A DNA stretch of 64,000 nucleotides from a virus. Made by a program: the position numbers and the translations under genes. The DNA is taken from IMG/VR virus record IMGVR_UViG_3300005913_000002. One strand, given 5' to 3'. Shown here in pieces: positions 3,960 to 63,600 of this stretch (positions within the stretch are counted from its first letter, which is position 1; each line of letters opens with the position of its first letter). The notes under the pieces are model-generated. The model was not told the origin of the DNA and ran no database searches. It saw only the letters and a list, made by a program, of their open reading frames with translations.

Positions 3960-4394
3960 TTACACTGCAAGGCCAGCATTTTTGTCAAATTTCAGGAGCA
4001 TATTCTCGCTAACATCCGATCCCGAGTATGTCAGTGTTAGTTCTATTAAGAATCCAAAGTCTTGTTCTACAATGTTAATAAATGTAGGAATTACTCTAGG
4101 ATCTGAATTGACTATTCTGTCAACATCCTCGGCAATAAACTGTCTAACAGTCGGAGTTAAAGGTTCAAAAATTAAATCCCATATGATAGAACCAAAGTTA
4201 GGATACATTAATCGTTCACCTTTGCGGGTGTTGAATTCGTTTAATATATCTTGTTTTATTAATTCAAAATCATATAGTTTGACATTGGTCGTAGACTCAT
4301 CTATCGTGCTAAATCCTTTATAAAACTGACTAATTTTAGTTTTAGATACGTTTTTAACGTTAGGAGGAGTAATAACCAAGTTCTTATATGCCAT
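3960..4394 (-). CDS. gp25: Baseplate wedge subunit gp25-like
   Basis: LIKQDILNEFNTRKGERLMYPNFGSIIWDLIFEP...DPRV is the GPW/gp25 signature. An AATAAATA late-promoter-like motif lies at 4409-4402. Confidence 0.9.
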   Translation of the reverse strand: MAYKNLVITPPNVKNVSKTKISQFYKGFSTIDESTTNVKLYDFELIKQDILNEFNTRKGERLMYPNFGSIIWDLIFEPLTPTVRQFIAEDVDRIVNSDPRVIPTFINIVEQDFGFLIELTLTYSGSDVSENMLLKFDKNAGLAV

Positions 4395-4412
4395 AGTTTA
4401 TTATTTATTTTA

Positions 4413-6671
4413 TTAATTTTTGGGCGGATAGTAGCCAGTTCTAATAGGATTACCGTTGCTATCAAGTACAGGATTGCCGTTACCATCAGTCCATACTTGA
4501 GCATCTTCTGGAATTTTTAACATCTGTGTTCTAATATAAGTTAGTTGATTTCTAACTTTGGCAGCAGCTTCTGCTTTAGTAATGTTTCCATCATTATTAG
4601 CATCTAGTCCTTTATTTTGTCTGTAAGCAGTAGAAGGACTACTGAATAACACATAGTCTAAAGGTTTACCAACTGCTCGTGGCCATAAAATCTGCATATA
4701 TAGATCTTCAAGCGTAGGAGCAGCAATTTTACGCACAGGACCTGCTTTAAAATATTTTAATACCCAGTCCATTTGTTCTACTCGTGTCATTACTGCCAAT
4801 GCATCAGTGGTAGTGCCAAGACCCCTGGCAGTAGAAGGAATAAACTGAATTAGTCCAGTTGCTCCTATACTATTTCTTATAGACGGACTTAATGTTCTAC
4901 CTGTTTCGAACGCCATACAGGCTAATAAATCTATAAATGAACAATTTAATTCTTTAGCAACTTCAATAGCTTTTTTAACAAATGCATGATCGTCTGCCCA
5001 ATTTTTAGGCATGTCTGCCCTATTGTAATTTGTAGGAGGATTTTCTTTAGTTGCAGGACTAGATGATGCTGCACTATAACTAGATTGTGCTTGTGATTTA
5101 GTAGGAACATCAGTAGTGCTATCGGTATTGACAGAATTAAATTGACTTTGATTAATCGATTCGTGATGGTCCCACGGCTCATGTGTCGGGACTCGTTTCA
5201 TAATAGACGAAATATCATCTGCTTTATAGAACTTGCCGTCATCCCATCCTTCATCTTTACTTCTGTTAGGAAGATTATATTTTGGTAATGCTGTTGGAAT
5301 TTCAGCAATTGAAGATACTGTTGATTTAGTTGCTTCTGCGGCTATCTGATCACTACTGTTCATGTGAATTACAGCAGCAGTTTCTGTGTAAGTACTTCCA
5401 GATTTAACATTAAAAATACCAGTCGATTGTTGGAACATTTGGTCGCCGGCTTTAACATTAATATTTGAAGACGATTGCTGGAACATATCTGATGCTGAAT
5501 ATAGATGCATCTTATTTCCGGCAGTTTGAAGTATTGAACCGTTTGCGCCCACATTGAGATCTTTACCCACAGAAACAGTATTATTTTTTACAATAGTTTC
5601 ATCAAGATTGCCTGAAAAGTTTATTTTACCGTTGTTATCTACAATGAGTGTATAATTGCCGCCTACATCTGCTTGAAAATTTTCACCTACTGAAATATTA
5701 AGATTTCTGCCTGCTTCAATATTAATATCTCTATCTGCTTTAAAATTAAAATCTGCTTCTGTATGCACACTGACGGAATCTTTTGCATATATATCAATTT
5801 TTCCTTGTCCAGTTAATTCAATCCATGCTGAACCAGATGCATTAGCAATATAAATTAAATCATGAGTATTATGCATTAATATCTGATGGCCTGTCCGAGT
5901 TCGAATTCTCACAAGTTCATTTTGGCCATCAGCATCTCCATCATCCATAACAAATGTACTACCACCCAATCTGCTAACTGGTTGAGGAGAACTAGATTGG
6001 TAACCTACAGAACCTTTTTTACCGTTAGGATCTAATGGGCCTGGCGTCGAAATGCCAAACACTTGACTAGGAACTTCTCGCCTTGCACTACTAGAAGTAA
6101 CTCCTCTCACTGAATCAGTAAGAAGGCCTTGTGCTAACAGTCTATCGGCAAAAGGATGAATAGGTTTTGTAAATGTATCAGGCTTTCCTATTGAAGTACT
6201 TCTAGTTCCTTTTAAAAATTCTGCAACTGGAAGATTTCTAGTGCCGTACTTTCTTTCTTGCGCCGCTGTAATTGCAACATTTTTACTAGCAGCAATTCCC
6301 GGAACCATATGATTTTGAAATCTATCGGCTACACACCCAAACCAATAGCCTTGATTAGGATCACCTTCAATAAAAATACACATAACAGTAGAACCAATAT
6401 CCGGAGGAACTGCCCAGAATCCATAACTTTTTTGTACGTCTTGCCAATTAGAAGAATCATTACCTTCAAATCTAATTGATGTAGATCCATGGAACGGACT
6501 TAGATATTGAACAATAAAAGTTTCGCTTTGAACATTTAGTTCACCTGTTGTAGGTTTAACTAGAACAACTTCTAATCCGCCCATATAGGTAGGGTCTTGG
6601 TGACTAGTTACAATACCAAGCCACGGTCCGGGACTAGGTAATTTTGAATGAGAACGGGAAGTTATTGGCAT
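4413..6671 (-). CDS. gp5: Baseplate hub/central spike gp5-like (OB fold, beta-helix repeats) with C-terminal lytic transglycosylase-like domain
   Basis: N-terminal DPTYMGGLEV...SYGFWAVPPDIGSTV OB fold, RIRTRTGHQI and VGGN-type beta repeats. C-terminal MAFETG...GATGLIQF..STA matches the SLT/lysozyme-like catalytic Glu and GLxQ motifs. Confidence 0.8.
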   Translation of the reverse strand: MPITSRSHSKLPSPGPWLGIVTSHQDPTYMGGLEVVLVKPTTGELNVQSETFIVQYLSPFHGSTSIRFEGNDSSNWQDVQKSYGFWAVPPDIGSTVMCIFIEGDPNQGYWFGCVADRFQNHMVPGIAASKNVAITAAQERKYGTRNLPVAEFLKGTRSTSIGKPDTFTKPIHPFADRLLAQGLLTDSVRGVTSSSARREVPSQVFGISTPGPLDPNGKKGSVGYQSSSPQPVSRLGGSTFVMDDGDADGQNELVRIRTRTGHQILMHNTHDLIYIANASGSAWIELTGQGKIDIYAKDSVSVHTEADFNFKADRDINIEAGRNLNISVGENFQADVGGNYTLIVDNNGKINFSGNLDETIVKNNTVSVGKDLNVGANGSILQTAGNKMHLYSASDMFQQSSSNINVKAGDQMFQQSTGIFNVKSGSTYTETAAVIHMNSSDQIAAEATKSTVSSIAEIPTALPKYNLPNRSKDEGWDDGKFYKADDISSIMKRVPTHEPWDHHESINQSQFNSVNTDSTTDVPTKSQAQSSYSAASSSPATKENPPTNYNRADMPKNWADDHAFVKKAIEVAKELNCSFIDLLACMAFETGRTLSPSIRNSIGATGLIQFIPSTARGLGTTTDALAVMTRVEQMDWVLKYFKAGPVRKIAAPTLEDLYMQILWPRAVGKPLDYVLFSSPSTAYRQNKGLDANNDGNITKAEAAAKVRNQLTYIRTQMLKIPEDAQVWTDGNGNPVLDSNGNPIRTGYYPPKN

Positions 6672-12079: not shown

Positions 12080-12979
12080 ATGACAATACTATCTCCAGGA
12101 CCAAAAGTTAGATATTTAAATAATAGAGATTTATTAGCAGAGATTCATAAAAGTAAAATTACTTTCAGCAGTTTCACCGATAAAAAATACAGTCAACACG
12201 ATATTATTTTAACTAATTTAGATAAAATTAATCGACTTACAGTCACTGATGCTAAAAGAGCACAGGCTAAACGAATAGGATTGTTGGCGTTTAATAAGGC
12301 CAGAGCAGAAGGAGATAAAAAAGTAAAGTTAGCAGAACTTACTCAGGACTATAAAACTATACAAAAAGTCGACTTAGTATTTCGAATTATGACATTTGAT
12401 CATATACCGCTAGCACCGGGACGTAAAAAAACAGTCAAGAGTACTGCAGACAGTCACGATAAGGTAAATTTTCCTCCTTTCCAACACTGGAAATACAATG
12501 ATAACGACGAACTTGTGTGTGTAGGTAAAAGTCATTGGAAAGGTGATCTAGACAAAGGATATTTTAGTAAAGAACATGGCAGAATTACTGAAAATCTTGG
12601 CAAAATGTTTATTAAACTTTCCGAACGATATGCACAACGTAGCAACTGGCGTGGTTATACTTATAATGAAGAAATGCGTGGACAAGCAATTCTACAGTTA
12701 AGTCAAATAGGATTACAGTTCGACGAATCAAAATCAGAAAATCCGTTTGCTTATTATACAGCGGCTGTTACTAATTCGTTTACTAGAGTACTAAACATTG
12801 AGAAAAAAAATCAAAATATTCGAGATGATATGCTGGAAATTAATGGGTTCACTCCAAGTATGACAAGACAATACCGTGATGAGTATGCGGAAGAAACTGC
12901 AAGGCAAGCAGAATTGTATAAAAACTTTAGAATGCCTAAATCGGAAGAAACAGATATCGAAAGCGGAACTGAAACTTGA
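12080..12979 (+). CDS. gp55: Late-transcription sigma factor, T4 gp55-like
   Basis: YLNNRDLLAEI at the N-terminus and NWRGYTYNEEM...FDESKSENPFAYYT....NSF.RVLNIEKK in the core; lies next to gp47/gp46 as in T4-like phages. Confidence 0.9.
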   Translation: MTILSPGPKVRYLNNRDLLAEIHKSKITFSSFTDKKYSQHDIILTNLDKINRLTVTDAKRAQAKRIGLLAFNKARAEGDKKVKLAELTQDYKTIQKVDLVFRIMTFDHIPLAPGRKKTVKSTADSHDKVNFPPFQHWKYNDNDELVCVGKSHWKGDLDKGYFSKEHGRITENLGKMFIKLSERYAQRSNWRGYTYNEEMRGQAILQLSQIGLQFDESKSENPFAYYTAAVTNSFTRVLNIEKKNQNIRDDMLEINGFTPSMTRQYRDEYAEETARQAELYKNFRMPKSEETDIESGTET

Positions 12980-13004: not shown

Positions 13005-13027
13005 ATTAAATAGGGAGACTATTGTTA

Positions 13028-14041
13028 ATGGCTTTGTTTAAAAAAGTAGCGTGTTTTACAGACATACATTTTGGTTTAAAATCAAATTCAGCAACTCATA
13101 ATCAAGATTGTGAAGACTTTGTAGATTGGTTTATTGAAAACGCAAAACGAGAAGGTTGCGAAACTTGTATTTTTCTTGGCGATTGGCATCATAATCGCAA
13201 CTCGATTAATCTAACTACCTTAGATGCAAGCATTAGAAGTTTAGAAAAACTAGGTGCAGCATTCGAACAATTCTTTTGGTTCCCTGGTAATCACGATTTG
13301 TTTTACAAAGACAAACGAACTATTCACAGTGCTGCGTTCGGACATCATATTCCGGGTGTCACTGTAGTTGATAAAGTTACTACTATTGACGACGTAACCC
13401 TTGTTCCTTGGCTAGTAAGTGATGAATGGCGAGATATTACCAAGATCAAGAGCAAATATATGTTTGGGCATTTTGAATTACCTTTGTTCTACATGAACGC
13501 CATGGTACAAATGCCTGATCACGGTGAACTGCAAGCAGAACACTTTCATTATCAAGACTATGTGTTCAGTGGTCACTTCCACAAACGGCAAAATAAAGGA
13601 AAAGTTTGGTACATTGGCAATGCTTTCCCCCATAACTTTGCAGATACATGGGATGACGAGCGTGGCATGATGACACTAGAATGGGGCGGTGTGCCTCAAT
13701 TCATCGATTGGGAAGATGCTCCTAAATTTAGATCTGTAAAATTAAGCAGACTAATTGATGAAGAATCTTCGTTGATGAAAAATAAAATGTACATCAAAGT
13801 TGGATTAGATATCGATATCAGTTTTGAAGAAGCAAATTTTATTAAAGAAACATTTGTAGACAAATATGATATTAGAGAAATAAGTCTAATTCAAGAAAAA
13901 GAAAATTTAGATTCTATTTTAGATGATCAAACCGAAACAAAATTTGAAAGTGTAGATCAAATTGTTACAGATCAATTAGTGAATATCGATTCAAATTCAT
14001 TTGATAAAAAATTATTACTTTCAATTTATAACAACCTATGA
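13028..14041 (+). CDS. gp47: Recombination endonuclease subunit (Mre11/SbcD-like), gp47
   Basis: Metallophosphoesterase motifs DIHFG, LGDWHH, GNHD, GHF and SGHFH. ATG 13028 is the likely start (the track starts at TTG 13022). Confidence 0.93.
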   Translation: MALFKKVACFTDIHFGLKSNSATHNQDCEDFVDWFIENAKREGCETCIFLGDWHHNRNSINLTTLDASIRSLEKLGAAFEQFFWFPGNHDLFYKDKRTIHSAAFGHHIPGVTVVDKVTTIDDVTLVPWLVSDEWRDITKIKSKYMFGHFELPLFYMNAMVQMPDHGELQAEHFHYQDYVFSGHFHKRQNKGKVWYIGNAFPHNFADTWDDERGMMTLEWGGVPQFIDWEDAPKFRSVKLSRLIDEESSLMKNKMYIKVGLDIDISFEEANFIKETFVDKYDIREISLIQEKENLDSILDDQTETKFESVDQIVTDQLVNIDSNSFDKKLLLSIYNNL

Positions 14042-15822
14042 CTTTCAAACTCAATAATATAACTGTGAAAAATTTCATGAGTGTAGGCAATCAAACTCAG
14101 GCAGTTGATTTTGATAAAGCACAACTTACACTTGTATTAGGTGAAAACGTAGACTTAGGTGGAGATGATAGCGGCAGTCGAAATGGTACAGGTAAAACAA
14201 CTATTATTAATGCGCTTTCGTATGCATTGTATGGCCAGGCGCTAACCAATATTAAAAAAGAAAACTTAATTAACAAGACAAATGGGAAACATATGCTTGT
14301 TACTGTAGAGTTTGATACTAACGGGCAGGCTTTTCGAATTGAAAGAGGGCGTAAACCCAATGTACTAAAGTTTTTTGTAAATGATCAAGAGCAAAAAACA
14401 GAAGATCAAGACGAAAGTCAAGGCGATAGTCGAGAAACGCAAAAGTCTATTGAGCAATTGTTAGGCATGAGTCATACAATGTTTAAGCATTTAATTGCGT
14501 TAAACACTTATACTGAACCTTTTCTTTCAATGCGAGCAGCAGATCAGAGAGAAGTTATTGAACAATTGCTAGGCATTACACTACTGTCAGAAAAAGCAGA
14601 ACGATTAAAACAAGAAGTAAAGATTACAAAAGATGCTATTCAACAAGAAACATTCAGAATCGAAGGTGTTAAAACTGCGAACGAGAATGTACAGAAATCC
14701 ATTGACAGTTTGGGCATTAAAAGTTCGGCCTGGGAAACAAAAACAAACGAAGACCTCGAAAAGTTAGGAAGAGCAATACTACAATTAGAAAATGTAGACA
14801 TTGACGAAGAACTATTGCTTCATGAAAATCTAAAAGAATGGCTTTCAGATACTTCTACTGTTAAAGAATTGAATAAACAGCGGGCAACTCTTGAAAGTGC
14901 TAAGATACAGGCTGATAAATCAGTTAGCAAATATACTAGCGCTGTAGAAACCCTTGCAAATAAACAATGTCCGGCATGTGAGCAAGAACTACATGACTAC
15001 AAGCATGAAGAAATGTTACTTAAAGCACAAAAAGATCTAGAAGACAGTTTAATCTATGCAGATAAAGTTAATGTAGGTTTGTTGTCTATCAAAGAAACTA
15101 TTGATGCAATTGGAGATTTAGGAAGGCGGCCTGAAACATTTTATGAAACAGAAGCCGAAGCACTAGGTCATAAAAACAATCTTAATAGTTTAGAAACTAG
15201 TTTAACAAATAAAGTTGCAGAATTGAATCCGTATAAAGAACAAGTAGAAGAACTTAAACAGACTGCGCTACAAGTAATCAATTGGAATATCATTAACGAA
15301 TTAACTAAAACTAAAGATCATCAAGAGTTTTTGTTAAAGTTGTTGACTAATAAAGATAGTTTTATTCGTAAAAAGATTATTGACCAGAATTTAAGTTATC
15401 TAAACAAACGATTAGGATATTATATTTCTAAAATGGGATTGCCACATCAAGTAAAATTTCAAAATGATTTAAACGTTGAAATTACACAACTTGGACAAGA
15501 CCTTGACTTTGATAACTTATCACGTGGTGAACGTAACAGACTTATTTTAAGTCTAAGTTGGGCATTCCGAGATGTTTGGGAAGGACTTTACCAACAGGTT
15601 AATTTATTGTTCATTGACGAACTTATAGATGCAGGAATGGACAGTGCAGGTGTAGAATCCGGACTTGCTGTTCTAAAGAAGATGGCACGTGAACGCAATA
15701 AGAATATATACTTGATCAGTCACAAAGACGAGTTAGTGGGGCGAGTTAACACTGTACTTAAGGTTATCAAAGAGAACGGATTTACTTCTTACTCAAATGA
15801 TGCCGATCATATCGAGCATTAA
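14038..15822 (+). CDS. gp46: Recombination ATPase subunit (Rad50/SbcC-like), gp46
   Basis: KNFMSVG, Walker A NGTGKTT, coiled coil with zinc hook CPAC, signature LSRGE, Walker B LFIDE, ISH. ATGA overlap with gp47. Confidence 0.95.
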   Translation: MTFKLNNITVKNFMSVGNQTQAVDFDKAQLTLVLGENVDLGGDDSGSRNGTGKTTIINALSYALYGQALTNIKKENLINKTNGKHMLVTVEFDTNGQAFRIERGRKPNVLKFFVNDQEQKTEDQDESQGDSRETQKSIEQLLGMSHTMFKHLIALNTYTEPFLSMRAADQREVIEQLLGITLLSEKAERLKQEVKITKDAIQQETFRIEGVKTANENVQKSIDSLGIKSSAWETKTNEDLEKLGRAILQLENVDIDEELLLHENLKEWLSDTSTVKELNKQRATLESAKIQADKSVSKYTSAVETLANKQCPACEQELHDYKHEEMLLKAQKDLEDSLIYADKVNVGLLSIKETIDAIGDLGRRPETFYETEAEALGHKNNLNSLETSLTNKVAELNPYKEQVEELKQTALQVINWNIINELTKTKDHQEFLLKLLTNKDSFIRKKIIDQNLSYLNKRLGYYISKMGLPHQVKFQNDLNVEITQLGQDLDFDNLSRGERNRLILSLSWAFRDVWEGLYQQVNLLFIDELIDAGMDSAGVESGLAVLKKMARERNKNIYLISHKDELVGRVNTVLKVIKENGFTSYSNDADHIEH

Positions 15823-15828
15823 TACTAA

Positions 15829-16119
15829 ATGTTAGAGAAATATACAGAGATTTATAAAGAGTTCTTGGAAAAAGTCACAGAGTTGCATAATGCACACATT
15901 GGCTTTACTCAAAAACCAACAAATAAATCTTGTAGACGTTTAAGAAAGGCCATAGGCCAGTTAAAAGAACATATGAATCCGTTTAGGATGGAAGTATTTC
16001 AATTACAAAAAGAGTATAGTGAAATTCAAAAACAAATTTGGCTTGATCATAAAGAACAGATCCGTTTAAAGACAGAAGCCAAAGAACAAAGAAAACTTTT
16101 AAAGGAAAATAAAAAATGA
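15829..16119 (+). CDS. Small basic helical protein, possible divergent Hc1-like paralog
   Basis: In the operon, with an ATGA overlap to the next gene. FTQKPTNKSCRRLRKAIGQLK parallels FAAGNTAAGTRARKALAEMSK. Confidence 0.55.
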   Translation: MLEKYTEIYKEFLEKVTELHNAHIGFTQKPTNKSCRRLRKAIGQLKEHMNPFRMEVFQLQKEYSEIQKQIWLDHKEQIRLKTEAKEQRKLLKENKK

Positions 16120-16313
16120 GTACACAAAATGAACTTCAATCAGCGTTTGATGCATACATGGCAGAAGATGCAAAATTTGCTGCAGGTAATACGGCAGCAG
16201 GAACTCGTGCTCGTAAAGCACTTGCAGAAATGAGCAAGGCTGTCAAGGCACGTCGCAACGAAATCACAGCAGAAAAGAATGCTCGTGTTGAAACAAAAAA
16301 GGCTGCACAGTAA
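16116..16313 (+). CDS. Histone H1-like Hc1-family small DNA-binding protein
   Basis: KF.AGN.AAGTRARKAL.E..K..KA.R.E motif of the short Hc1-like family; AAGGA RBS. Confidence 0.75.
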   Translation: MSTQNELQSAFDAYMAEDAKFAAGNTAAGTRARKALAEMSKAVKARRNEITAEKNARVETKKAAQ

Positions 16314-16742
16314 TTGACTTGGACTTATCAAGGCAGTATAATTAATGAATTGCCCGAAGATTGTGTTGGATTTGTATATCTTATCTCTAACACAATTACC
16401 GGGCGTAAGTATATTGGTAAGAAATTAGCAAAATTTAGTAAAACGACCTACAAGACTGTAAAGTTAAAGAACGGCACAAAGAAGAAAAAAAAGATTCGAG
16501 GCAAAATTGAATCAGACTGGCAAACATATTATGGCTCGAGTCCTAATCTAACAACAGACGTTGTAGCATTAGGCACAGATAAATTCACTAGAGAAATCCT
16601 CTATTACTGTAAATCAAAATCAGAAACATCTTACATTGAGGCTCGAGAACAATTCGAGCGCAAAGTATTAGAATCCGACGAATACTATAACGGACATATA
16701 CAAGTCCGTGTCCATGGCTCTCACATAAAATCTAAAATTTAA
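16314..16742 (+). CDS. Stand-alone GIY-YIG (Seg-like) nuclease, catalytic domain only
   Basis: GFVYLISN...RKYIGKK, YYGSS, F.REIL, E(AREQ) and YYN motifs. TTG start directly after the Hc1 stop. No C-terminal DNA-binding module. Confidence 0.8.
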   Translation: MTWTYQGSIINELPEDCVGFVYLISNTITGRKYIGKKLAKFSKTTYKTVKLKNGTKKKKKIRGKIESDWQTYYGSSPNLTTDVVALGTDKFTREILYYCKSKSETSYIEAREQFERKVLESDEYYNGHIQVRVHGSHIKSKI

Positions 16743-17225
16743 GGCACCTTAAGCGGTAACAAGCAAGCGTCGGCAAATATCGGACGCCCTAAACCTGGAT
16801 TACGAATCGCAGGGATGGAAAACTCTCGCCGCTAAGAGTACTCAACTACTACCCGAAAGGATGAAGATCGCTAATCAAGACCTGCGATTTAGTTGTTTGA
16901 AGAGAATTGAATAGGCAAAAAGATGTAGGGTTTAACAAACGCCTACAGTGTTGTGCAATAAGATAGTGTTTAATGCATAACATGCCGTTGTAATAAGACA
17001 AGACGAGCAGGTATCGGACAACCGCCTGTGTTAAGTAGAAATACTTTGTAGTTTTAACACTATGTGGCTGCGCTACTCAGATAATGCAGATTTTTTTCTT
17101 TGCCCTGTGCGGGCGAAGTGTGACCACTTAATCTAGATAATAGTTTAAGTGCTTCGCATATCATTATTACTTCATTTATAACAGTTCGAGCGATAGCAAA
17201 GAACAGATGTACGCAGTACATCTTA
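16743..17225 (+). ncRNA. Candidate large structured non-coding RNA (family not recognised)
   Basis: About 480 nt without a credible ORF in a densely coded genome, visibly GC-richer than its flanks. It has at least 10 stems with G-U pairs, GAAA tetraloops, and a pseudoknot-like pairing (16805-16813 with 16881-16889; 16843-16848 with 16890-16895). Confidence 0.6.
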
Positions 17226-17229
17226 TTAA

Positions 17230-17237
17230 TATAAATA
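17230..17237 (+). promoter_or_regulatory. T4-type late promoter TATAAATA
   Basis: Exact consensus, upstream of the AAGGA RBS and ATG 17268. Confidence 0.8.
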
Positions 17238-17267
17238 ATCATGTTCGCTATTAAGGAAACAAACATC

Positions 17268-17783
17268 ATGCGTATAGATCAAATATTATCCGAATCTGCT
17301 ATTCGAGAATTAAATGAAGGTCCTGGATGGGATGCTGCTAAAGCAGGTATCAAAGGAGTTGCCAAAGGCATAGGTCAAGTAGCCAAAGGTGCTGCAATGG
17401 GTGTTCCTGGAGTAGTGGGCGGTGTTGCCAAAGGTGCTGGCGCAGTAGCAGGTGGTATTGCTGGTATGGGCAAGGCAGCAAAGCAGGGTTATAATGCAGG
17501 CAAATCAGCAGTAGCAGGTAACCCAACTACTGCAACAAATAAAGTTAACCCAGCAATGGGACAATCTACACAACAACTTGCAGCAGTTTCAAATTATAGA
17601 CAAACAAAAGATTTAGTTGCCAAATTAGATAAAAAAAGCAAGCAAAGAATTCTTGCTATCCTTGCACAAGACTTAGGTATTACAAATCAAGCAGCACCAG
17701 TTAAGAAGACTGTTAGTAAAATGGCTCCTCCCGGAACGCCGGCAGCAAAGCCTAAAGTAGTGCGTGGCGGCAAAGCAGTTTAA
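17268..17783 (+). CDS. Gly/Ala/Lys-rich late protein, possible internal head protein
   Basis: Late promoter plus AAGGAA RBS favour ATG 17268 (MRIDQILSE...) over 17241. Contains amphipathic GxAKG repeats. Confidence 0.6.
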   Translation: MRIDQILSESAIRELNEGPGWDAAKAGIKGVAKGIGQVAKGAAMGVPGVVGGVAKGAGAVAGGIAGMGKAAKQGYNAGKSAVAGNPTTATNKVNPAMGQSTQQLAAVSNYRQTKDLVAKLDKKSKQRILAILAQDLGITNQAAPVKKTVSKMAPPGTPAAKPKVVRGGKAV

Positions 17784-57655: not shown

Positions 57656-60600
57656 ATGGCAATAAATTTTGATACCAACACACCAGGCAGCGTAACGCTT
57701 AAATCGCCGTCAACGGGCACTGTTACCTTAACATTACCTGATACTGCTAATACCAGCGGTTGGCAACTAGTATTAGCAGATAACACAGGCACATTAGAAT
57801 TTGTGCCTCCTGGCACCGGCGCAAGCGGCGTAGCAGGTGTAGACGGTGCTACCGGTGCTACTGGTCCTATTGGTGCAAGCGGAGCAACTGGCGCTACTGG
57901 CCCAGTGGGCGCAAGCGGCGCAGCAGGAGCAAACGGATCTACCGGTGCTACAGGTCCTATTGGTTCAACTGGGTTAAGCGGTACAGTAGGTAACGCAGGC
58001 TCAACCGGTGCTACAGGATTTACTGGTGCTACAGGAGCAACCGGTGCTACAGGATTTACTGGTGCAACAGGCGGCATTGGTGCTACGGGCGCTGCAGGCG
58101 GCGCAGGTTCAGCAGGAGCAACAGGTGCTAGCGGATTGGGGTACGATGTTACATCTACAACTAGTCATCCAACAGCAGTAGGTACTAGAACTTTTACTGT
58201 TAACAAAGCAAATGCTTATGTAATTGGCGGCCGAGTACAAATTACTTCTACAGCAGTTCCTACAAACTATATTCAAGGTACTGTTACGGGTATTGTGGGA
58301 TTAAACATAACTGTTAGTGTAGATTCAGTAGCAGGTTTTCCGGGCCAAACTTACAGTTCTTGGAAATTTTCAGTTGCCGGCCTAAACGGAACAACAGGCG
58401 CTACTGGGCAAACAGGTGCATTCGGATCAACAGGTGCAACTGGTCCGGGCGGTAATACAGGTAATGACGGTGCTACTGGTGCTACCGGTATTCAGGGTAA
58501 CCAAGGATCAACAGGTGCTACAGGTCCTCAGGGAGCAAGCGGCTCAGCCGGTGGCGCAGGAAACCAAGGTTCGACAGGAGCAACTGGTTATACTGGAACT
58601 ACAGGTGCTACTGGTGCAACTGGTTTACAGGGAACAACCGGTGCTACAGGACCGAGCGGAGTCGGCGGCACTACGGGCGCAACTGGTTTTAATGGATCAA
58701 CCGGTGCTACAGGTCCTAGAGGAGCAGGAACATGGACTCCTATTTTAGGAACAGGAGTATCATCTACTGATTATACAGTGTTTACAAAAACTGGTGGATC
58801 AAACGGTGCTTGGGATGTTCATGTATATTCAGCAGAAGGATTTGTAAGAGGTGCCGCAGTTGCAGCAAGAGCAGGCGGGACTGCTACTTATCGTGTGATG
58901 TTTGGTTTAAACAGTGATCCTGCTGCAAATGCAAGTTTCTCTTCAATTGATTATTCATACTACATGAATAACGGTTCTGTTGCAATTTATGAAAGCGGAG
59001 CAAGTGTAGCAGGTAGTTGGGGAACATATACTACTTCAACAGAATTTCAAATTACTTACGATGGATATTTTGTAAGGTATTACAAAGACGGAGTAATGCA
59101 GAGAGAAGTTTCCCGTATAATGGGAACTGCATTATATTTTGATAGTTCGTTTAACTATACAAATAATTCATTAACTAATGTGTCATTTGGTATGGCTGGC
59201 GAGTTAGGCCCTGAAGGTGCTGCTGGTGCAGGTATTGGTGCTGGCGGAGCAAACCAAGTTATCTATAAAGATAGTGGAAACTTATTTGCTGGTAGTAATA
59301 ATTTAACATTTGATGGTTCAAATTTAAATATCGGTGGCGCATTACAGTTTGACGGTAAAATAAACTGGGATAGTACTACTGGTACCACGCAAAAAGGTTC
59401 TCCAACTATTGCGTTTCACAGTGTTCGAAGCGGACTAAAACATCCCAGTTACTTGGACGAAAACTTCTTAAGCGGAAGTAACAACATCAATGTTTACAAT
59501 AACTCTGGTGGTAGTAATGTAACTATTACTCGAACAGCAAATAACTCAACTATTAATGCTCCTACTACTAGCGGATATGTTTTAACAATTAATCATACAG
59601 GAACTGTTGCAAGTCCTGGGTTTGGTGGTTTTAACTTTGCCGTAGGTACTAGAGCCAATGCAATTTTAGTTTCAACTTTTACAGCGAAATTACCAACAGG
59701 CAGAACAATTAACTGGGGTTCTAATGCCATCGGTACTAACGGAACAAGTTACTGGTTAACTAATAATACAGGCACAGGCAAGTGGGAAGAATATTCTTAT
59801 GTTGTTATATGTGGCAATAGTGGTAGTTTTAGTAGTACTCACTTTTTCTATGTAACTGGCGGTGCAGCACCTAGTGCAGGAGCACCATTAACTTGGTATT
59901 TGGCAAGCAGTGCAATTTATGATGTAACTGATCAAAGAAGCGATGTACTTTATCTAGATCGTGTCGGCAGCACCCCTAACATCAAAGGATACGGTGAAGG
60001 ACAGATCATTATTGATGGATCTACTACTGGCAAGGGTGTTTATCTAAATCATTATGTAAATGGCAACGTCTATGCTGCAAGTGGCGGCGGCAAACTAGCA
60101 GTAGGTGGTGGTACTGGTCCGACGTATACATTAGATGTTTACGGTACAGGTGCAGTTAGAGATTACTTCCGTATTACCAATGCTGGTGGCGCACAGAAAC
60201 TGTTAATGGGTAACCAAGATAGCAGCGGCACTAATAATCCTAATATTATTACAGCGGCTAACGGTACGCTGTCATTTGGAACAGGAAACACTTGGGCTAC
60301 TAGTGGCGGCACTGTTAGTAATTTTGCAACTTTTGCAAGTGCAGGAGCAACAATTGTAGCAGGATCAGGTACAACACCTGCTCTAAAAATTAACCCAGGC
60401 GGAAACAGTTGGAGTGAAGGTATTCGAATTAATCCTAGCCCAGGTGGTTGGTCCGGACTATATCTCCCTTCTACAGCAGACGTTACCGGCGGCACATGGT
60501 TAATAGGTAAAGCAGGCGGACTTGCCAACCAGTTCATCTTAATGAAGAACGGATTTACTGGATCTGTAGCAGTACGCTCAGATGCTGCCTTTGACGTAAG

Positions 60601-63600
60601 TTCGACTACAGGTAGATTTACATTTGGTTATAATCCGTATGTAGGTACAAATCAAATATGGCACGCAGGAAACTTAACTGATGCAAGTCAGTTGGGCAAC
60701 AGTGGCGGATATGTCGGCGCTGGCGGCATTGCAACATTTCAATATGTAAGAACAACAGGCGGCGGCCTTGCTGATACTTCTGGAACATCATCAGCACTAA
60801 GAATCTATGCTCCTGGAGGAGCAGCATACGCTACTGGAACTAATGCAGTAACTGGTGCTATTAAAATTCGGTTACCGCAGTATCGTTCATCTACAATGAT
60901 GAGAATGACTGTCAAGATTTTCGAATACGCTGGTGGAACTGGTGCAGGAACTAGTAGAAGTATCGAACTAGGCGGATACAACTATGGTCCAGGCGGCTGG
61001 TATAACACTTTTGCTACACAAGAAACTGACGGTGGCGGAAACATTAATGTACGCTTCGGACATGACGGAACGAAAAATGCTATCTGGATTGGAGAAACCG
61101 GAACAGTATGGTCATACCCACAAATTTTTGTTACAGAGTTTCAAGCAGGGTACAATAATTTTGGATATACACAATGGGTAGACGGCTGGTCGGTTAGTAT
61201 AGACAGTAGTTTTGGTACAGTTGAAACCAACATAACTGCTGCAAGAATTCACACTAGCGATAACCTAACTAACCTAAGTCAGTTGACTAACGGTCCTAGT
61301 TTTGTATCTGCATACTATACAGGACCTACTGACTTCCGTGGTGGCGATCACATGTTTACATCTGAAGGAACTGGCGCCAGCACTATCAACAACAGCACCT
61401 ATGCTCTACAAGTTGGTCCCTTTAACAATCGTATTACAACTGCAAACAGTTACTACGGCGGTATTGCGTTTAACCATTTGTTAAACTACAGCGGCGGTAC
61501 ATTAAACGACGACAGCACAAGTTATAATACTTCGCCGCATGCATGGATAGGTTTGCGATTGCATGATACTCCTGGTAGCGAACGAAGTTTCTTAGTATTT
61601 GCTACCAAGCCAGGTACTGGTACTAGTAATGCTGGCGCAGACATACCTAACGAACGTATGACAATTGATCCAGTTAATGGATATGTTGGTATTAATGTAC
61701 CTGATCCTACTCATAGATTACATGTTAACGGTGACGTTCGTTTCCAAGGCAATAGTCGTGCGTACTTTGGTCCTAATAGTACATGGGGTGCAGATTTAAT
61801 TATCGGCGGCAATGGTAGAACTGACGCTACTAAGTCTACTGTGGCGGCAACTAATGGAAATTTACACATTGACGCTGCTAACGGCTATGATTTGTACTTA
61901 AACTATTACAGCGGCCGTCCTATATATGCAAGAGGCAGCAATACAAACTGGGACAGTGGTAATTTAAGTAATTTAAGTCAGTTGACTAACGGTCCGGGAT
62001 TTATTACATCGAGCGGTTCAGCAGGCAGCATCAGTGGTGTCACTATTGATCGTATTGTTTACGGACAAAATTCTACTAAAACAACAGAAACCGGGTTAAC
62101 ACAAGCACTTTCTTCTGGATTCTATAACGCCTATAACAACGGTACTCCTACAGGTACATGGTATACTGCAATACATGTTCGCCATACTAACACTGGTAAT
62201 AATTACGGCGGCCAGATTGCAATGAGTTTCTACAACGACGGTGATATTTACAATCGTCGCATTGAAAACGGCAGTTACAGTACTTGGCGTAAAATTTGGA
62301 ACAACTTTAATTTAACTAACCTAAGTCAGTTGACTAACGGACCTGGATTTTTAGGCAAGTTTGGTAATACTTATTATCAATTAGATACATGGTTGCAAGG
62401 TACAGGAACACACGGCTTATATTTTCCAAGCAGTGGAGCAGGAACACACTTCCATCCTAACCCTGCAACTTACGGTTCATTCTTAGTCCAAGGAAGCAAG
62501 AACGGATATTGGGGCCAGATGTATTTGACCAGCACAGGTCAGCAGGGTATGATGACCTCCGGAAACCTTGTTGGCTGGTACAATCATAGCGGTGGATGGA
62601 AGTTCCGTTTCAACAGCGGTGATGTGTTCTACGTCTATAGTGCATCAAACGGAGGCGGCTCTGCAAGAACAGTATGGCATAATGGTAACTTAACTAACCT
62701 AAGTCAATTGACTAACGGACCGGGCTTTGTTACAGGAGCAAGTCAGTCATTAAGTTACAGAGGAGCAATAACAGGCGGCTCTCAAACAGAAGGAGTATTA
62801 AACTCCGGTTGGTACACAGTAAACGAATCAGGATATGGCACATTCTTGTTCCATATGGGCGGCGCCACTTCATCTACTCGTAGTGTTCAAATGTATTTCC
62901 ACTACGATGATCGCATGTGGATTAGAACTGGACGAAACAGTGAAACACAATGGGACGGTGTTGGAAGATATTCTAGATTAGTATGGACCAATGGATCATT
63001 GACTAACCTAAGTCAATTGACTAACGGACCGGGATTTGTTTCAAGTGGGAGCAGTCCTACATTCCAGGAAGTTTATGTCAACGGTTGGTTCCGTAACAAC
63101 ACTAGTGGCAACGGTTTATATAACCAGGGAAACGCAAACCACTGGTATGCAAGCGCAGGCAACTACTGGGACACTGGGCTAACTACGTCTGGCGGTATTA
63201 GACTGCGTATTGGTTATAATGGTACGGTTAGAGGACACTTATATTGTGATACTAGCAGCAACTCAGGTCTATTAAACCAAAGCGGCTCGTGGAAAGTTCG
63301 TGTTAATGGTAGCGACACTGAAATTTACGATCTGTTATATTGGAATGATGGCCGTGGATACATCTTCTACGATAGAAACAATACTGGTTATTATGTAGAC
63401 CCTGCAAGTACATCTAACCTTAACGTTATTAACAATGAAGGTCAATATGGTAGATGGTGGGAACCAAAGGGCGTAGGTGGCAACAGCGGTAACGGTGGCC
63501 ACGCATATAGAATTTTCCAAGAAGGCGGTGGCTGGGGATTTCCATATCCTGACTTACGTATTGCATTCCATACTGGTATTAAGTTTGGTGCAAACACAAG

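What the first reader, a model, noticed from the sequence alone, without database searches (positions are those of the whole stretch)
16314..17225. Minimal GIY-YIG nuclease directly followed by a structured RNA of about 480 nt: possible ribonucleoprotein system
Seen: the 142-aa GIY-YIG protein has only the catalytic domain plus a Lys-rich insert (KTTYKTVKLKNGTKKKKKIRGK). It lacks the C-terminal DNA-recognition modules that Seg/I-TevI homing endonucleases normally carry. The longest non-coding gap of the window starts at its stop codon and is packed with stems: 16767-71/16783-87, 16794-97/16810-13, 16822-26/16835-39, CC-GAAA-GG 16853-60, 16924-29/16942-47, 16949-57/16974-82, 17008-11/17025-28, 17028-34/17054-60 (with inner AAGTA-GAAA-TACTT), 17098-105/17111-18, 17125-31/17145-51 and 17205-12/17216-23. 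G-U wobbles and GNRA loops favour a plus-strand RNA, co-transcribed with the gp47-gp46-Hc1-nuclease operon. Known: HEARO/omega RNAs partner with HNH/IscB nucleases. Inference: this may be an analogous, undescribed GIY-YIG + RNA pair (RNA-guided or RNA-regulated nuclease), a new large phage ncRNA or ribozyme class, or a structured replication origin.
Basis: partly seen in the sequence, partly recalled or inferred. Interest (0 to 1): 0.88.

Follow-up and report, generated by a model that had tools for sequence, protein, structure and literature searches.

The report
Full-length Polynucleobacter-1 twin-box phage RNA
The gene-free stretch behind a small DNA-cutting enzyme gene of this uncultured T4-like freshwater phage encodes a real, knotted non-coding RNA of about 480 bases whose first third is an orphan motif catalogued in 2010. 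It sits next to a small DNA-cutting enzyme in phages and a small DNA-joining enzyme in bacteria, and carries one 7-letter word twice, but nothing shows that it guides the nuclease.

Summary
Window 16314-16742 encodes a 142-aa catalytic-domain-only GIY-YIG nuclease. The 498-nt gap behind it is a plus-strand structured RNA: 80 base pairs in 18 helices, 4 of them pseudoknotted, 96% paired across 38 relatives, 57 pairs with compensatory changes.

It is not a new family. Positions 16762-16898 match Rfam RF01718 (Polynucleobacter-1, 115 bits). The 2010 authors already noted its place behind this gene family (PSSM2_218 homologs).

Tested here beyond Rfam:
- The conserved RNA runs about 480 nt.
- It carries two direct "boxes" (17079-85 and 17135-41) that are identical in 111 of 114 relatives across 12 identical variants.
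- In sister phages the GIY-YIG gene is replaced in place by a PD-(D/E)XK resolvase-like nuclease.
- In freshwater Burkholderiales the same RNA sits between a DUF6641 gene and a 188-aa catalytic-domain-only tyrosine recombinase.

The RNA-guided-nuclease reading found no support. There is no guide-like end, no covarying target in two complete genomes, and no protein-box co-variation. The nuclease family is also widespread in phages that were not found to carry the RNA.

Function stays unknown; a cofactor or regulator of junction-processing enzymes is my best guess (about 40%). This scan has already met the same family on other genomes.

The parts
13022..15822 (+). gp47/SbcD-like (13022-14041) and gp46/SbcC-like (14038-15822) recombination nuclease genes. 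They form the upstream part of the same-strand gene row.
   Evidence: Pfam Metallophos, SMC_N and AAA_23. PHROG SbcD 3e-64 and SbcC 3e-100. The order gp47 > gp46 > (Hc1) > nuclease > RNA > hub< is conserved in about 80 loci.
16116..16313 (+). 65-aa Hc1-like (histone H1-like) gene directly before the nuclease gene
   Evidence: PF07432 Hc1, E 9.9e-12. It is kept in some relatives whichever nuclease follows (L297 and L298).
16314..16742 (+). 142-aa stand-alone GIY-YIG nuclease gene (catalytic domain plus a basic beta-hairpin insert)
   Evidence: PF19835 2e-31. phrog_447, mislabelled 'NAD synthetase'. Homolog of P-SSM2 PSSM2_218: 33% identity, E 2e-18. The model matches the I-TevI catalytic domain.
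16750..17223 (+). Full structured RNA, about 475 nt. The first conserved pairing starts 10-12 nt after the stop codon. The last hairpin ends 8 nt before the late promoter.
   Evidence: Alignment A1. 80 pairs in 18 helices, 96.0% paired against 80.0% in shuffles (0 of 500) and 34-40% when slid. 57 pairs have changes on both sides.
16762..16898 (+). 5' domain = Rfam RF01718 Polynucleobacter-1. Helices: P1 16767-71/16783-87, P2 16795-801/16805-12, P3 16823-25/16836-38, P4 16843-48/16890-95, P5 16853-54/16859-60, P6 16866-71/16884-89.
   Evidence: cmscan 115.2 bits (gathering score 37), E 3e-26, model positions 1-141 of 141. Covariation per helix.
16754..16831 (+). Pseudoknot PK0: 16754-57 pairs with the P3 loop, 16828-31
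   Evidence: Mutual information for 16753/16832 and 16755/16830. All 4 pairs show changes on both sides; 90% paired (helix 1).
16951..17063 (+). 3' core. Long hairpin Hb (16951-61/16970-80), whose loop 16963-69 pairs with 17057-63 (PK1). H-type knot Hc (16987-90/17019-22) crossed by Hd (17009-12/17024-27) and He (17001-04/17051-54).
   Evidence: helices 11-15. PK1: 7 of 7 pairs with double changes, 98% paired. He: 4 of 4. Hb: 10 of 11.
17033..17046 (+). Clade-specific inserted hairpin (AAGUA-GAAA-UACUU)
   Evidence: Present only in the window, L005, L007, L009, L022, L035 and L064; absent in the other rows of A1.
17075..17086 (+). Twin-box copy 1: invariant A-CUC, then the 7-nt box 17079-17085 (AGAUAAU here), then G. 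It is preceded by a GUG(A/G)C-type constant motif.
   Evidence: The box is identical to copy 2 in 111 of 114 distinct relatives, with 12 identical variants. At least 45 parsimony changes occur in step.
17098..17118 (+). GC-rich hairpin Hf between the two boxes
   Evidence: 8 pairs, 95.7% paired, 2 with double changes (helix 16).
17131..17142 (+). Twin-box copy 2: invariant A-UCU, then the 7-nt box 17135-17141 (AGAUAAU), then A. It is preceded by GUGUGAC.
   Evidence: The flanks CUC and UCU are invariant and different in 109 of 109 sequences, which argues against gene conversion.
17206..17222 (+). Terminal hairpin Hi, the likely 3' end or terminator of the RNA
   Evidence: 7 of 7 pairs with double changes, 96.9% paired (helix 18).
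17231..17238 (+). T4-type late promoter word TATAAATA for the next gene (ORF 17268-17783; ribosome-binding site AAGGAA at 17253-58)
   Evidence: Read from the sequence. ATAAATA follows the terminal hairpin in most relatives. That this word is the T4 late-promoter consensus is my own knowledge.

Best explanation
**What it is (near certain).** Window 16750-17223 (+) is the full-length form of the orphan Polynucleobacter-1 RNA.
- It has an RF01718 5' domain.
- It has an uncatalogued 3' core with three further pseudoknot helices, which are absent from the 141-position Rfam model.
- It has two identical 7-nt boxes in direct orientation, 47-59 nt apart in nearly all relatives (one at 74).
- It ends in a hairpin just before the late promoter of the next gene.
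- It lies at the 3' end of the same-strand row gp47-gp46-(Hc1)-small nuclease, so it is probably made as the tail of that transcript. No internal promoter was found. Co-transcription is inferred, not shown.

**How it works (inferred, about 40%).** The RNA is a cofactor or regulator of the small enzyme encoded next to it, which cuts or rejoins DNA.
- In this phage that enzyme is a GIY-YIG nuclease.
- In sister phages it is a PD-(D/E)XK protein of a family annotated as Holliday-junction resolvase.
- In bacterial islands it is a catalytic-domain-only tyrosine recombinase.
- The RNA would offer two equivalent single-stranded heptamers to two equivalent partners, either the subunits of a dimeric enzyme or two identical nucleic-acid strands.

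It is not a CRISPR- or omega-type guide RNA with a programmable end.
For: **Identity**
- RF01718 scores 115 bits.
- About 480 nt are conserved in 54+ IMG/VR relatives.
- The structure has 80 pairs, 96% paired, 57 compensatory, with 0 of 500 shuffles reaching it.
- G-U pairs fix the strand.

**Linkage to a nuclease in phages**
- RNA-first search: 65 true RNA loci. 55 have GIY-YIG and 4 have PDDEXK_15 upstream (all but one on the same strand). 4 lie at contig edges and 2 are weak hits.
- Protein-first search: 70 of 71 GIY-YIG loci have the RNA.
- PDDEXK_15 loci: 15 of 28 have the RNA. In 8 the full-length RNA starts 13-27 nt after the stop codon.
- The two nucleases exclude each other. No GIY-YIG lies in any PDDEXK_15 locus. 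The complete genomes G006 and G007 have one GIY-YIG and no PDDEXK_15; G011 and G012 are the reverse.
- The PDDEXK_15 family is annotated as Holliday-junction resolvase in cultured phages.

**Bacterial copies**
- RF01718 scores 89-94 bits in Polynucleobacter and Oxalobacteraceae genomes and a MAG.
- DUF6641 lies divergently upstream in 27 of 30 loci.
- A 188-aa tyrosine recombinase (PF00589 covering residues 6-176) lies downstream in 16 of 18 loci that could be judged, at 42-92% protein identity.

**Twin boxes**
- They are identical in 111 of 114 sequences, with 12 identical variants and at least 45 joint changes.
- They are also present in PDDEXK_15-type and bacterial copies.
- All three partner enzymes lack a separate DNA-binding domain.
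Against: - Nothing shows a physical contact.
- Gene order is frozen in phages: gp47 > gp46 > nuclease > RNA > hub< in nearly all loci. An in-place swap of the nuclease would therefore keep adjacency without any functional tie.
- A recombinase next to an island-borne RNA may simply be the island's mobility gene.
- The GIY-YIG family is present in 500+ phage records (cyanophages, Melnitz, phiN3, ACP17). No RF01718 match lies beside it in the four I scanned, so the enzyme probably does not need this RNA.
- No GIY-YIG column tracks the boxes beyond phylogenetic background.
- In L128 and L106 the RNA is rearranged relative to the nuclease.
- The extra length of the basic hairpin in the RNA-linked clade is only 6-9 residues.
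Confidence: 0.45

Rival explanations
1. Independent trans-acting non-coding RNA (for example host take-over, decoy or sponge). It merely occupies the 3' untranslated slot at the end of the recombination operon, where early and late transcription converge. The neighbouring nuclease is irrelevant. The twin boxes bind a host factor or host RNA that differs between host strains.
For: - Synteny is frozen, so adjacency needs no function.
- The nuclease family is widespread, and the four other phages scanned show no RF01718 beside it.
- There is no protein-box co-variation.
- No phage-encoded complement of the boxes exists in two complete genomes, so any nucleic-acid reader must lie outside the phage.
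- The 3' twin-box core also occurs with a different 5' region that is not RF01718 (L038, L049, L063, L304), as expected of a modular RNA.
Against: - The RNA starts 10-27 nt after the nuclease stop codon whichever nuclease fold is present.
- In a wholly different bacterial context its neighbour is again a minimal DNA strand-cleaving enzyme.
- A host reader that changes at four positions among close relatives is hard to picture.
Confidence: 0.35
2. One reading: an RNA-guided GIY-YIG nuclease, analogous to IscB or TnpB with omega RNA, in which a variable RNA segment base-pairs with a DNA target that the protein then cuts.
For: - The nuclease is minimal and has no DNA-recognition domain.
- Nuclease and RNA are tightly adjacent.
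- The RNA contains short variable words.
- Other catalytic-domain-only enzymes sit beside the same RNA.
Against: - Neither end carries a variable guide; both ends are conserved helices.
- The only variable words are 7 nt long and internal.
- Those 7-mers are neither depleted nor enriched in the genome.
- They have no covarying complement or third copy in nine genomes or within +-3 kb.
- The protein does not co-vary with them.
- Homologs in the four other phages scanned have no RF01718 beside them.
Confidence: 0.07
3. Re-pairing device. The two identical boxes are take-off and landing sites for a nascent strand copied from the RNA or its DNA. This is the logic of telomerase templates, retroviral R repeats, DRT2 template jumping and the T4 gene 60 hop. 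The reader of box 2 is then the complement just made on box 1.
For: - It explains identity in direct orientation without any separate covarying partner.
- It explains why a mismatch between the copies is almost never seen.
- The resemblance to those systems is from my own knowledge, not tested here.
Against: - No reverse transcriptase (PF00078) was found in five related contigs, though these are only 16-35% complete.
- The unit length varies (47-59 nt in nearly all relatives, one at 74) with no multiple-of-three rule, and a concatemer is not an open frame in 86 of 114 sequences.
- No one-box or three-box alleles occur, except one deletion variant, L091.
- No polymerase is known to do this in T4-like phages.
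Confidence: 0.05
4. An element at the DNA level (replication origin, recombination site or promoter cluster), or a mobile intron-like or homing cassette made of a nuclease gene plus a ribozyme.
For: - Interchangeable small nucleases of GIY-YIG and PD-(D/E)XK type next to one structured RNA recall homing-endonuclease genes in group I introns (my own knowledge).
- A 7-nt identity is the size of a tyrosine-recombinase overlap region (my own knowledge).
- The element sits beside recombination genes.
Against: - Strand-specific G-U pairs and 57 compensatory pairs point to a folded single strand.
- No group I or group II intron model matches, even at E up to 10.
- No host gene is interrupted.
- The GUGAC-spacer-box module is not repeated elsewhere in the genomes, so it is not a general promoter.
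- Direct repeats 47-59 bp apart are probably too close for recombinase excision (my own knowledge).
- The GIY-YIG gene is a single-copy conserved gene in two complete genomes and across cyanophages (T4-GC 213), not a sporadic homing gene.
Confidence: 0.05

Closest known systems
Polynucleobacter-1 RNA motif (Rfam RF01718; Weinberg et al. 2010, Genome Biol 11:R31, PMC2864571)
   Same: The 5' 137 nt match the model end to end at 115 bits. The RNA lies downstream of the same gene family (GOS11034 / PSSM2_218, which is this GIY-YIG protein). The habitat is the same (fresh water, Burkholderiales). The authors' own alignment already runs into a 3' 'tail' with a pseudoknot.
   Different: - Rfam models only 141 positions.
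- The 2010 supplementary note and alignment I read do not name the gene as a nuclease and do not mention the twin boxes, the PD-(D/E)XK replacement or the DUF6641 / mini-recombinase cassette.
- The authors said they found it in no purified phage.
- The function is still unknown.
Omega RNA / HEARO with IscB, and reRNA with TnpB (RNA-guided nucleases of IS200/605 elements)
   Same: A structured RNA of a few hundred nt is encoded next to a compact nuclease gene.
   Different: Those RNAs carry a programmable guide at one end, and their proteins have RNA-binding parts (my own knowledge). Here both ends are conserved helices, the variable words are internal 7-mers with no target found, and the nuclease is a 142-aa GIY-YIG domain that the four other phages scanned encode without RF01718 beside it.
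IS110 bridge RNA (Durrant et al. 2024)
   Same: A structured RNA with two internal recognition loops works with a recombinase. The two sites share an identical core (my own knowledge).
   Different: - Bridge-RNA loops differ from each other (target against donor) and match the element ends and the target. Here the two words are identical, and no matching DNA site covaries.
- The enzyme there is a DEDD transposase, not a tyrosine recombinase or a nuclease.
Type III toxin-antitoxin RNAs (ToxI/ToxN, CptIN)
   Same: The RNA has about two direct repeat units that evolve in concert and is encoded beside a nuclease gene (my own knowledge).
   Different: - The antitoxin repeats are whole 36-45-nt units placed upstream of an endoribonuclease gene (my own knowledge).
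- Here only a 7-nt word and a short constant motif are repeated, inside a 480-nt non-repetitive RNA that lies downstream of a GIY-YIG or PD-(D/E)XK nuclease gene.
Large ornate phage-associated RNAs (GOLLD, ROOL)
   Same: Size class (400-800 nt), many pseudoknots, phage-borne, function unknown (my own knowledge).
   Different: No sequence or model match. Those RNAs tend to lie near tRNA genes (my own knowledge). This one lies behind a nuclease gene, and the window holds no tRNA.

Membership tests
Rfam RF01718 Polynucleobacter-1 RNA | Covariance-model score at or above the curated gathering score (37 bits), full-length match | tested here: met
   115.2 bits, model positions 1-141 of 141, window 16762-16898 (+).
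Rfam RF01718 Polynucleobacter-1 RNA | The consensus helices are kept through compensatory changes | tested here: met
   P1, P2, P3, P4 and P6 are 87-99% paired and each has pairs with changes on both sides; P5 is invariant (helices 2-9).
Rfam RF01718 Polynucleobacter-1 RNA | Located downstream of genes of family GOS11034 / homologs of P-SSM2 PSSM2_218 (Weinberg 2010 supplement) | tested here: met
   The GIY-YIG protein aligns with PSSM2_218 at 33% identity, E 2e-18.
RNA-guided nuclease systems (IscB/TnpB with omega RNA; HEARO) | A variable guide segment at one RNA end that matches DNA targets | tested here: not met
   Both ends are conserved pairings (PK0 and terminal hairpin). The internal 7-nt boxes have no covarying complement or extra copy in nine genomes.
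RNA-guided nuclease systems (IscB/TnpB with omega RNA; HEARO) | Nuclease and RNA are obligately linked across the protein family | tested here: not met
   Linkage is 97-99% inside this freshwater clade. The protein occurs in 500+ phage records, and no RF01718 match lies beside it in the four scanned (Melnitz, V45v66, phiN3, ACP17).
RNA-guided nuclease systems (IscB/TnpB with omega RNA; HEARO) | The protein binds the RNA and cleavage depends on it | not testable with these tools
This needs biochemistry.
Group I intron carrying a homing-endonuclease gene | Group I ribozyme core (Rfam RF00028) and interruption of a host gene | tested here: not met
   No intron family matches in 16600-17400 at E up to 10. 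The flanking genes are complete and the next gene has its own late promoter.
Type III toxin-antitoxin | Tandem, near-identical RNA repeat units upstream of an endoribonuclease toxin gene | tested here: not met
   Only a 7-nt box and a short constant motif recur. The RNA lies downstream, and the protein has a GIY-YIG DNA-nuclease fold.
GIY-YIG nucleases (protein 16314-16742) | GIY and YIG motifs, conserved Arg, Glu and Asn, and the fold of the I-TevI catalytic domain | tested here: met
   PF19835, 2e-31. Invariant residues include F20-V21-Y22, Y33-I34-G35, R93, E109 and N126. Foldseek hit 1ln0_A, prob 0.95.
Seg/I-TevI-type homing endonucleases | C-terminal DNA-binding module and sporadic, mobile distribution | tested here: not met
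   142 aa with no C-terminal domain. Single copy in two complete genomes and present across cyanophages as T4-GC 213.

The most novel reading that the evidence does not exclude
The RNA is a symmetry-matched dual guide for enzymes that work on Holliday junctions or paired recombination sites.

- Its two identical heptamers would pair with the two identical like-polarity strands of a junction formed between homologous DNAs, or with the identical overlap regions of two recombination partners.
- It would thereby position a minimal, domain-less cutter or joiner: GIY-YIG, PD-(D/E)XK resolvase or mini tyrosine recombinase.

This single idea would explain four observations:
- why the two boxes must be identical;
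- why no separate covarying target exists;
- why the word can drift freely;
- why three unrelated enzymes that cleave or rejoin DNA sit beside the same RNA.
Probability: 0.08. Interest if true: 0.95.

Novelty: new member of a known kind. Interest (0 to 1): 0.55.

Why it matters
Polynucleobacter-1 has been an orphan entry in Rfam since 2010, and only its first 141 positions are modelled.

This window and its relatives add the following:
- The true unit is a multiply knotted RNA of about 480 nt, common in uncultured giant (about 350 kb) T4-like freshwater phages.
- The same RNA is also carried in Polynucleobacter and Limnohabitans chromosomes.
- It has a rare evolutionary signature: two direct copies of a heptamer that change only together.
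- Its neighbour is always a minimal enzyme that cuts or rejoins DNA, of three unrelated folds.

If the RNA proves to work with these enzymes, it would be a new way of coupling RNA to recombination. If it does not, it is still one of the larger unexplained phage RNAs.

The bacterial copies sit in cultured strains, which makes the question testable.

Tried and rejected
1. **DNA similarity to cultured phages.** None for the gap or the gene at blastn sensitivity.
2. **RF01718 next to homologs in cultured phages** (Melnitz, V45v66, phiN3, ACP17). None.
3. **Cis partner for the boxes.**
   - The only recurrent complement is the G/U-rich 16893-16902. It needs three G-U pairs, overlaps helix P4, and cannot explain identity between the boxes.
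   - No exact complement sits at a fixed offset within +-3-4 kb.
4. **Box 1 pairing with box 2** (RNAalifold's suggestion). Rejected: the rare variants GAAUAAU, GCAUAAU and ACAUGAA break it without compensation.
5. **Flanking stems that would put each box in a hairpin loop.** No excess over shuffled partners.
6. **Trans partner in the phage.** Nine genomes, including two complete ones (347 and 355 kb) with four different box variants: 178 homologous-site comparisons gave 2 chance matches.
7. **Self-avoidance.** The 7-mers are not depleted.
8. **Protein reader.** No GIY-YIG column tracks the boxes.
9. **Gene conversion.** Rejected, because the 3-nt flanks CUC and UCU stay different in 109 of 109 sequences.
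10. **Neo-like concatemer gene.** Rejected.
11. **Promoter-type module.** It is not repeated elsewhere. No sigma-70-like promoter lies inside the gap on the plus strand.
12. **Reverse transcriptase.** None in five partial contigs.
13. **T4 endonuclease VII homolog.** Not found in G006 or G007, but the control search was silent, so this is uninformative.
14. **DUF6641 fold.** No match. No PADLOC defence family matched any cassette protein.
15. **Twin-box RNA next to the closest cultured PDDEXK_15 homologs** (Pseudomonas phage Ettore, Salicola phage SCTP-2). Not found.
Full report
**Context.** The window is part of an uncultured T4-like phage.
- On the plus strand lie a gp55-type late sigma factor (12080-12979), gp47/SbcD (13022-14041), gp46/SbcC (14038-15822), a 96-aa ORF, a 65-aa Hc1-like protein (16116-16313) and the 142-aa GIY-YIG protein (16314-16742).
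- Then comes the gap, an ORF at 17268-17783, and a baseplate-hub gene on the minus strand.
- No whole genome is held for the window.
- Related IMG/VR contigs reach 347-355 kb and are rated complete.
- The closest cultured relative of the nuclease is in the OM43 phage Melnitz, at 53% identity.

**The protein.**
- PF19835 (SegE_GIY-YIG) matches residues 3-129 at E 2e-31. PHROG 447 carries the wrong label 'NAD synthetase'.
- GIY, YIG, Arg, Glu and Asn positions are invariant among relatives.
- An AlphaFold model built on 18 relatives (pLDDT 80.9) best matches the I-TevI catalytic domain. The Lys-rich segment forms a long beta-hairpin at residues 40-66.
- The family is not sporadic. tblastn finds it in at least 500 phage records, mostly cyanophages, one place per record, and in P-SSM2 it is PSSM2_218 / T4-GC 213.
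- All homologs have a basic stretch at the same place. The RNA-linked clade has 6-9 extra residues.

**The RNA is real, and its 5' part is known.**
- Rfam RF01718 (Polynucleobacter-1) matches 16762-16898 (+) end to end at 115 bits against a threshold of 37.
- Weinberg et al. [quoted passage not shown] They say they found it in no purified phage. Their alignment already extends into a 3' tail with a pseudoknot.
- PSSM2_218 is a homolog of the GIY-YIG protein here. The gene-RNA adjacency was therefore on record, though the gene was not recognised as a nuclease.

**Comparative structure.**
- A protein-based scan of IMG/VR returned 80 close homologs at 68-87% identity. By nhmmer, 70 of the 71 with enough downstream sequence carry the RNA right after the stop codon.
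- I aligned the window gap with 37 of these (A1).
- From mutual information and RNAalifold I derived 80 pairs in 18 helices. These include four crossing helices:
  - PK0: 16754-57 with the P3 loop, 16828-31.
  - PK1: the loop of the long hairpin, 16963-69, with 17057-63.
  - He (17001-04/17051-54) and Hd (17009-12/17024-27), both crossing Hc (16987-90/17019-22).
- Counts on A1:

| Measure | Value |
|---|---|
| Cells paired | 96.0% |
| Cells paired in shuffles | 80.0% (0 of 500 shuffles reach the observed value) |
| Pairs with changes on both sides | 57 |
| Covariation score | 0.461, against 0.05-0.10 when partners are slid by 1-3 columns |

- Near-invariant G-U pairs fix the plus strand.
- The first conserved pairing begins 10-12 nt after the stop codon. 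The last hairpin (17206-12/17216-22, 7 of 7 pairs compensatory) is followed by TATAAATA (17231-38). From my own knowledge this is the T4 late-promoter word. It precedes the ribosome-binding site and ATG of the next gene.
- No sigma-70-like promoter lies inside the gap on the plus strand. Co-transcription with the upstream row is therefore the simplest reading, but it is inferred.

- Nine of the eleven stems are confirmed. Two are clade-specific or compete with the conserved pseudoknot.
- The gap is not the longest ORF-poor stretch of the window.

**Twin boxes.**
- Two segments are identical in their central 7 nt in 111 of 114 distinct family members:
  - A-CUC-[7 nt]-G at 17075-86;
  - A-UCU-[7 nt]-A at 17131-42.
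- There are 12 identical variants: AGAUAAU, GGAUAAU, GGAUGAU, AGAUGAU, AGAUGAA, AGAUGAG, ACAUGAA, GCAUAAU, GGAUGAA, GAAUAAU, GAAUGAU and UGGUAAU.
- On a tree built from the rest of the RNA, the box changes at least 45 times, always in both copies. Position 1 changes 29 times, position 5 changes 16, position 7 changes 11 and position 2 changes 5.
- These rates are ordinary for unconstrained columns, whose median is 18. The oddity is the lock-step, not the speed.
- The 3-nt flanks (CUC against UCU) are invariant and different in all 109 sequences. Gene conversion is therefore not the cause; selection for identity is.
- A short constant motif of the GUGAC type precedes each box at a fixed distance.
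- The boxes are 47-59 nt apart in nearly all relatives (one at 74), with no rule of three.
- The Polynucleobacter chromosomal copy printed in the 2010 supplement has AGCGAAA twice. Bacterial copies show eight identical variants, with looser identity at positions 1 and 7.

**Search for a reader of the boxes. All tests were negative.**
- No complement at a fixed place in cis.
- Box-to-box pairing is not compensated.
- No supported flanking stems.
- No covarying complement or extra copy at any homologous site. This covered nine genomes, two of them complete, whose boxes differ at positions 1, 2 and 5.
- No depletion of the word in the genome.
- No GIY-YIG column tracks the box.
- The module is not a repeated promoter-like motif.
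- A concatemer of the unit is not an open frame.
- No reverse transcriptase in five partial contigs.

**The neighbour is interchangeable.**
- I searched IMG/VR from the RNA side, using a pattern taken from the 3' core. This gave 65 true RNA loci:
  - 55 have the GIY-YIG gene upstream;
  - 4 have instead a 171-173-aa PDDEXK_15 protein (PF24608, E 1e-25 to 3e-29);
  - 4 lie at contig edges;
  - 2 are weak hits.
- Starting from the PDDEXK_15 protein, 28 loci gave:
  - 8 with the full RNA beginning 13-27 nt after the stop codon;
  - 7 with the 3' core about 200 nt after it;
  - 9 with only a weak match to the terminal part about 1.1 kb downstream;
  - 4 with nothing.
- None of those 28 loci has a GIY-YIG gene.
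- The complete genomes G006 and G007 have one GIY-YIG and no PDDEXK_15. G011 and G012 show the reverse.
- The surrounding order gp47 > gp46 > (Hc1) > nuclease > RNA > hub< is the same for both. This is an in-place, non-orthologous replacement.
- PDDEXK_15 homologs in cultured large phages are annotated as Holliday-junction resolvases. That annotation is untested.
- The swap fits a shared role for both nucleases in processing recombination intermediates, next to gp46/gp47. Because the synteny is frozen, it does not prove that the RNA needs the nuclease.

**Bacterial copies.**
- A pattern from the Polynucleobacter-type sequence found 30 contigs of freshwater Burkholderiales, including cultured Polynucleobacter and Limnohabitans strains.
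- RF01718 scores 89-94 bits in the four I scanned.
- 27 of 30 have a DUF6641 gene divergently upstream.
- 16 of 18 loci that could be judged have, downstream on the RNA strand, a 188-aa tyrosine recombinase. It consists of the catalytic domain alone (PF00589 over residues 6-176). Proteins are down to 42% identical, so the trio is conserved as a unit.
- No GIY-YIG or PDDEXK_15 gene lies in these loci.
- DUF6641 gave a confident model (pLDDT 81.7) with no fold match and no defence-system match.
- No covarying extra copy of the box flanks the cassette within the 8 kb held.

**Modularity.** Several phage relatives (for example L038, L049, L063, L304) keep the 3' twin-box core but lack an RF01718 match. 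The core is therefore the more widespread part.

**Interpretation.**
- Certain: a member of the Polynucleobacter-1 family in its full-length form.
- Probable but inferred: it is made as the 3' tail of the recombination-nuclease transcript.
- Open: its function. I put about 40-45% on a working relationship with the adjacent enzyme that cuts or joins DNA. The grounds are tight adjacency, three unrelated minimal enzymes in two kinds of genome, and a twofold-repeated word that would suit a dimeric enzyme or two identical strands.
- About 35% goes to an unrelated trans-acting RNA that only shares a frozen slot.
- The strict RNA-guided-nuclease reading gets under 10%.
- The boldest reading that the data do not exclude is a dual guide matched to the twofold sequence symmetry of Holliday junctions or paired recombination sites. 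I give it about 8%.

**Earlier notes of this scan.** One note describes the DUF6641 / mini-recombinase cassette and several mention PDDEXK neighbours. I reached the twin boxes, the PDDEXK replacement and the bacterial cassette before reading those notes, and I tested each here. They agree with my results. A note that cultured E. coli and Salmonella phages carry a relative was not tested.

Noticed in passing
window 58749-60162 and about 60538-63553: Two ORF-poor stretches longer than the gap under study (1.4 kb and up to 3 kb without ORFs of 80 aa or more; only scattered ORFs of 35-69 aa on both strands). No Rfam match at E 0.01 and no DNA match in cultured phages.
   Followed up: partly
window 16116-16313: A 65-aa protein matching the chlamydial histone H1-like family Hc1 (PF07432, E 1e-11) sits between gp46 and the nuclease gene. 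It is kept in some relatives whichever nuclease follows.
   Followed up: no
window 16314-16342: A near-consensus sigma-70-type promoter (TTGACT, 17 nt, TATAAT; 11 of 12 matches) overlaps the TTG start codon of the GIY-YIG gene. A transcript from it would start inside the ORF. Conservation was not checked.
   Followed up: no
window 16805-16813 and 16881-16889: The 3' strand of P2 is the exact complement of the 3' strand of P6, giving a 9-bp alternative pairing. About half of the relatives (CCUGCG type) keep it and the GCCGCG type do not, so it is at most a clade-specific alternative fold.
   Followed up: partly
L178:3963-4484, L104:6472-6987, L285-L312: In sister phages a PDDEXK_15 (PF24608) resolvase-like nuclease replaces the GIY-YIG gene at the same place in front of the RNA. 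The two genes exclude each other.
   Followed up: yes
L334:5708-7709 and L313-L342 (Polynucleobacter, Limnohabitans and other Burkholderiales): A conserved bacterial trio: DUF6641 gene (divergent), Polynucleobacter-1 RNA with twin boxes, and a 188-aa tyrosine recombinase that has only the catalytic domain. In L323 a tRNA gene lies about 4 kb downstream.
   Followed up: partly
L091:8274-8640: A family member with a single box. The segment from the pseudoknot strand through box 1 and the GC hairpin is deleted. It may be a decaying copy, or a deletion between the repeated GUGAC-box modules.
   Followed up: no
L128 (RNA 4304-4572 +, GIY-YIG 4006-3581 -): A rearranged locus in which the RNA's 3' core lies between Hc1 and the GIY-YIG gene on the opposite strand. 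Its two boxes differ at two positions (AGCGAAU against UGCGAAG).
   Followed up: no
window 12080-12979: The gp55-type late sigma factor is 299 aa (phrog_12791, E 1e-83). This is much longer than T4 gp55, which is about 185 aa from my own knowledge, so it has an N-terminal extension.
   Followed up: no
L343 (Pseudomonas phage Ettore) 978-2296: Next to the closest cultured PDDEXK_15 homolog lies a 1.3-kb stretch annotated only with tiny ORFs of 31-52 aa, between the baseplate hub and the resolvase gene. No twin-box RNA of this family was detected there by pattern or profile.
   Followed up: partly
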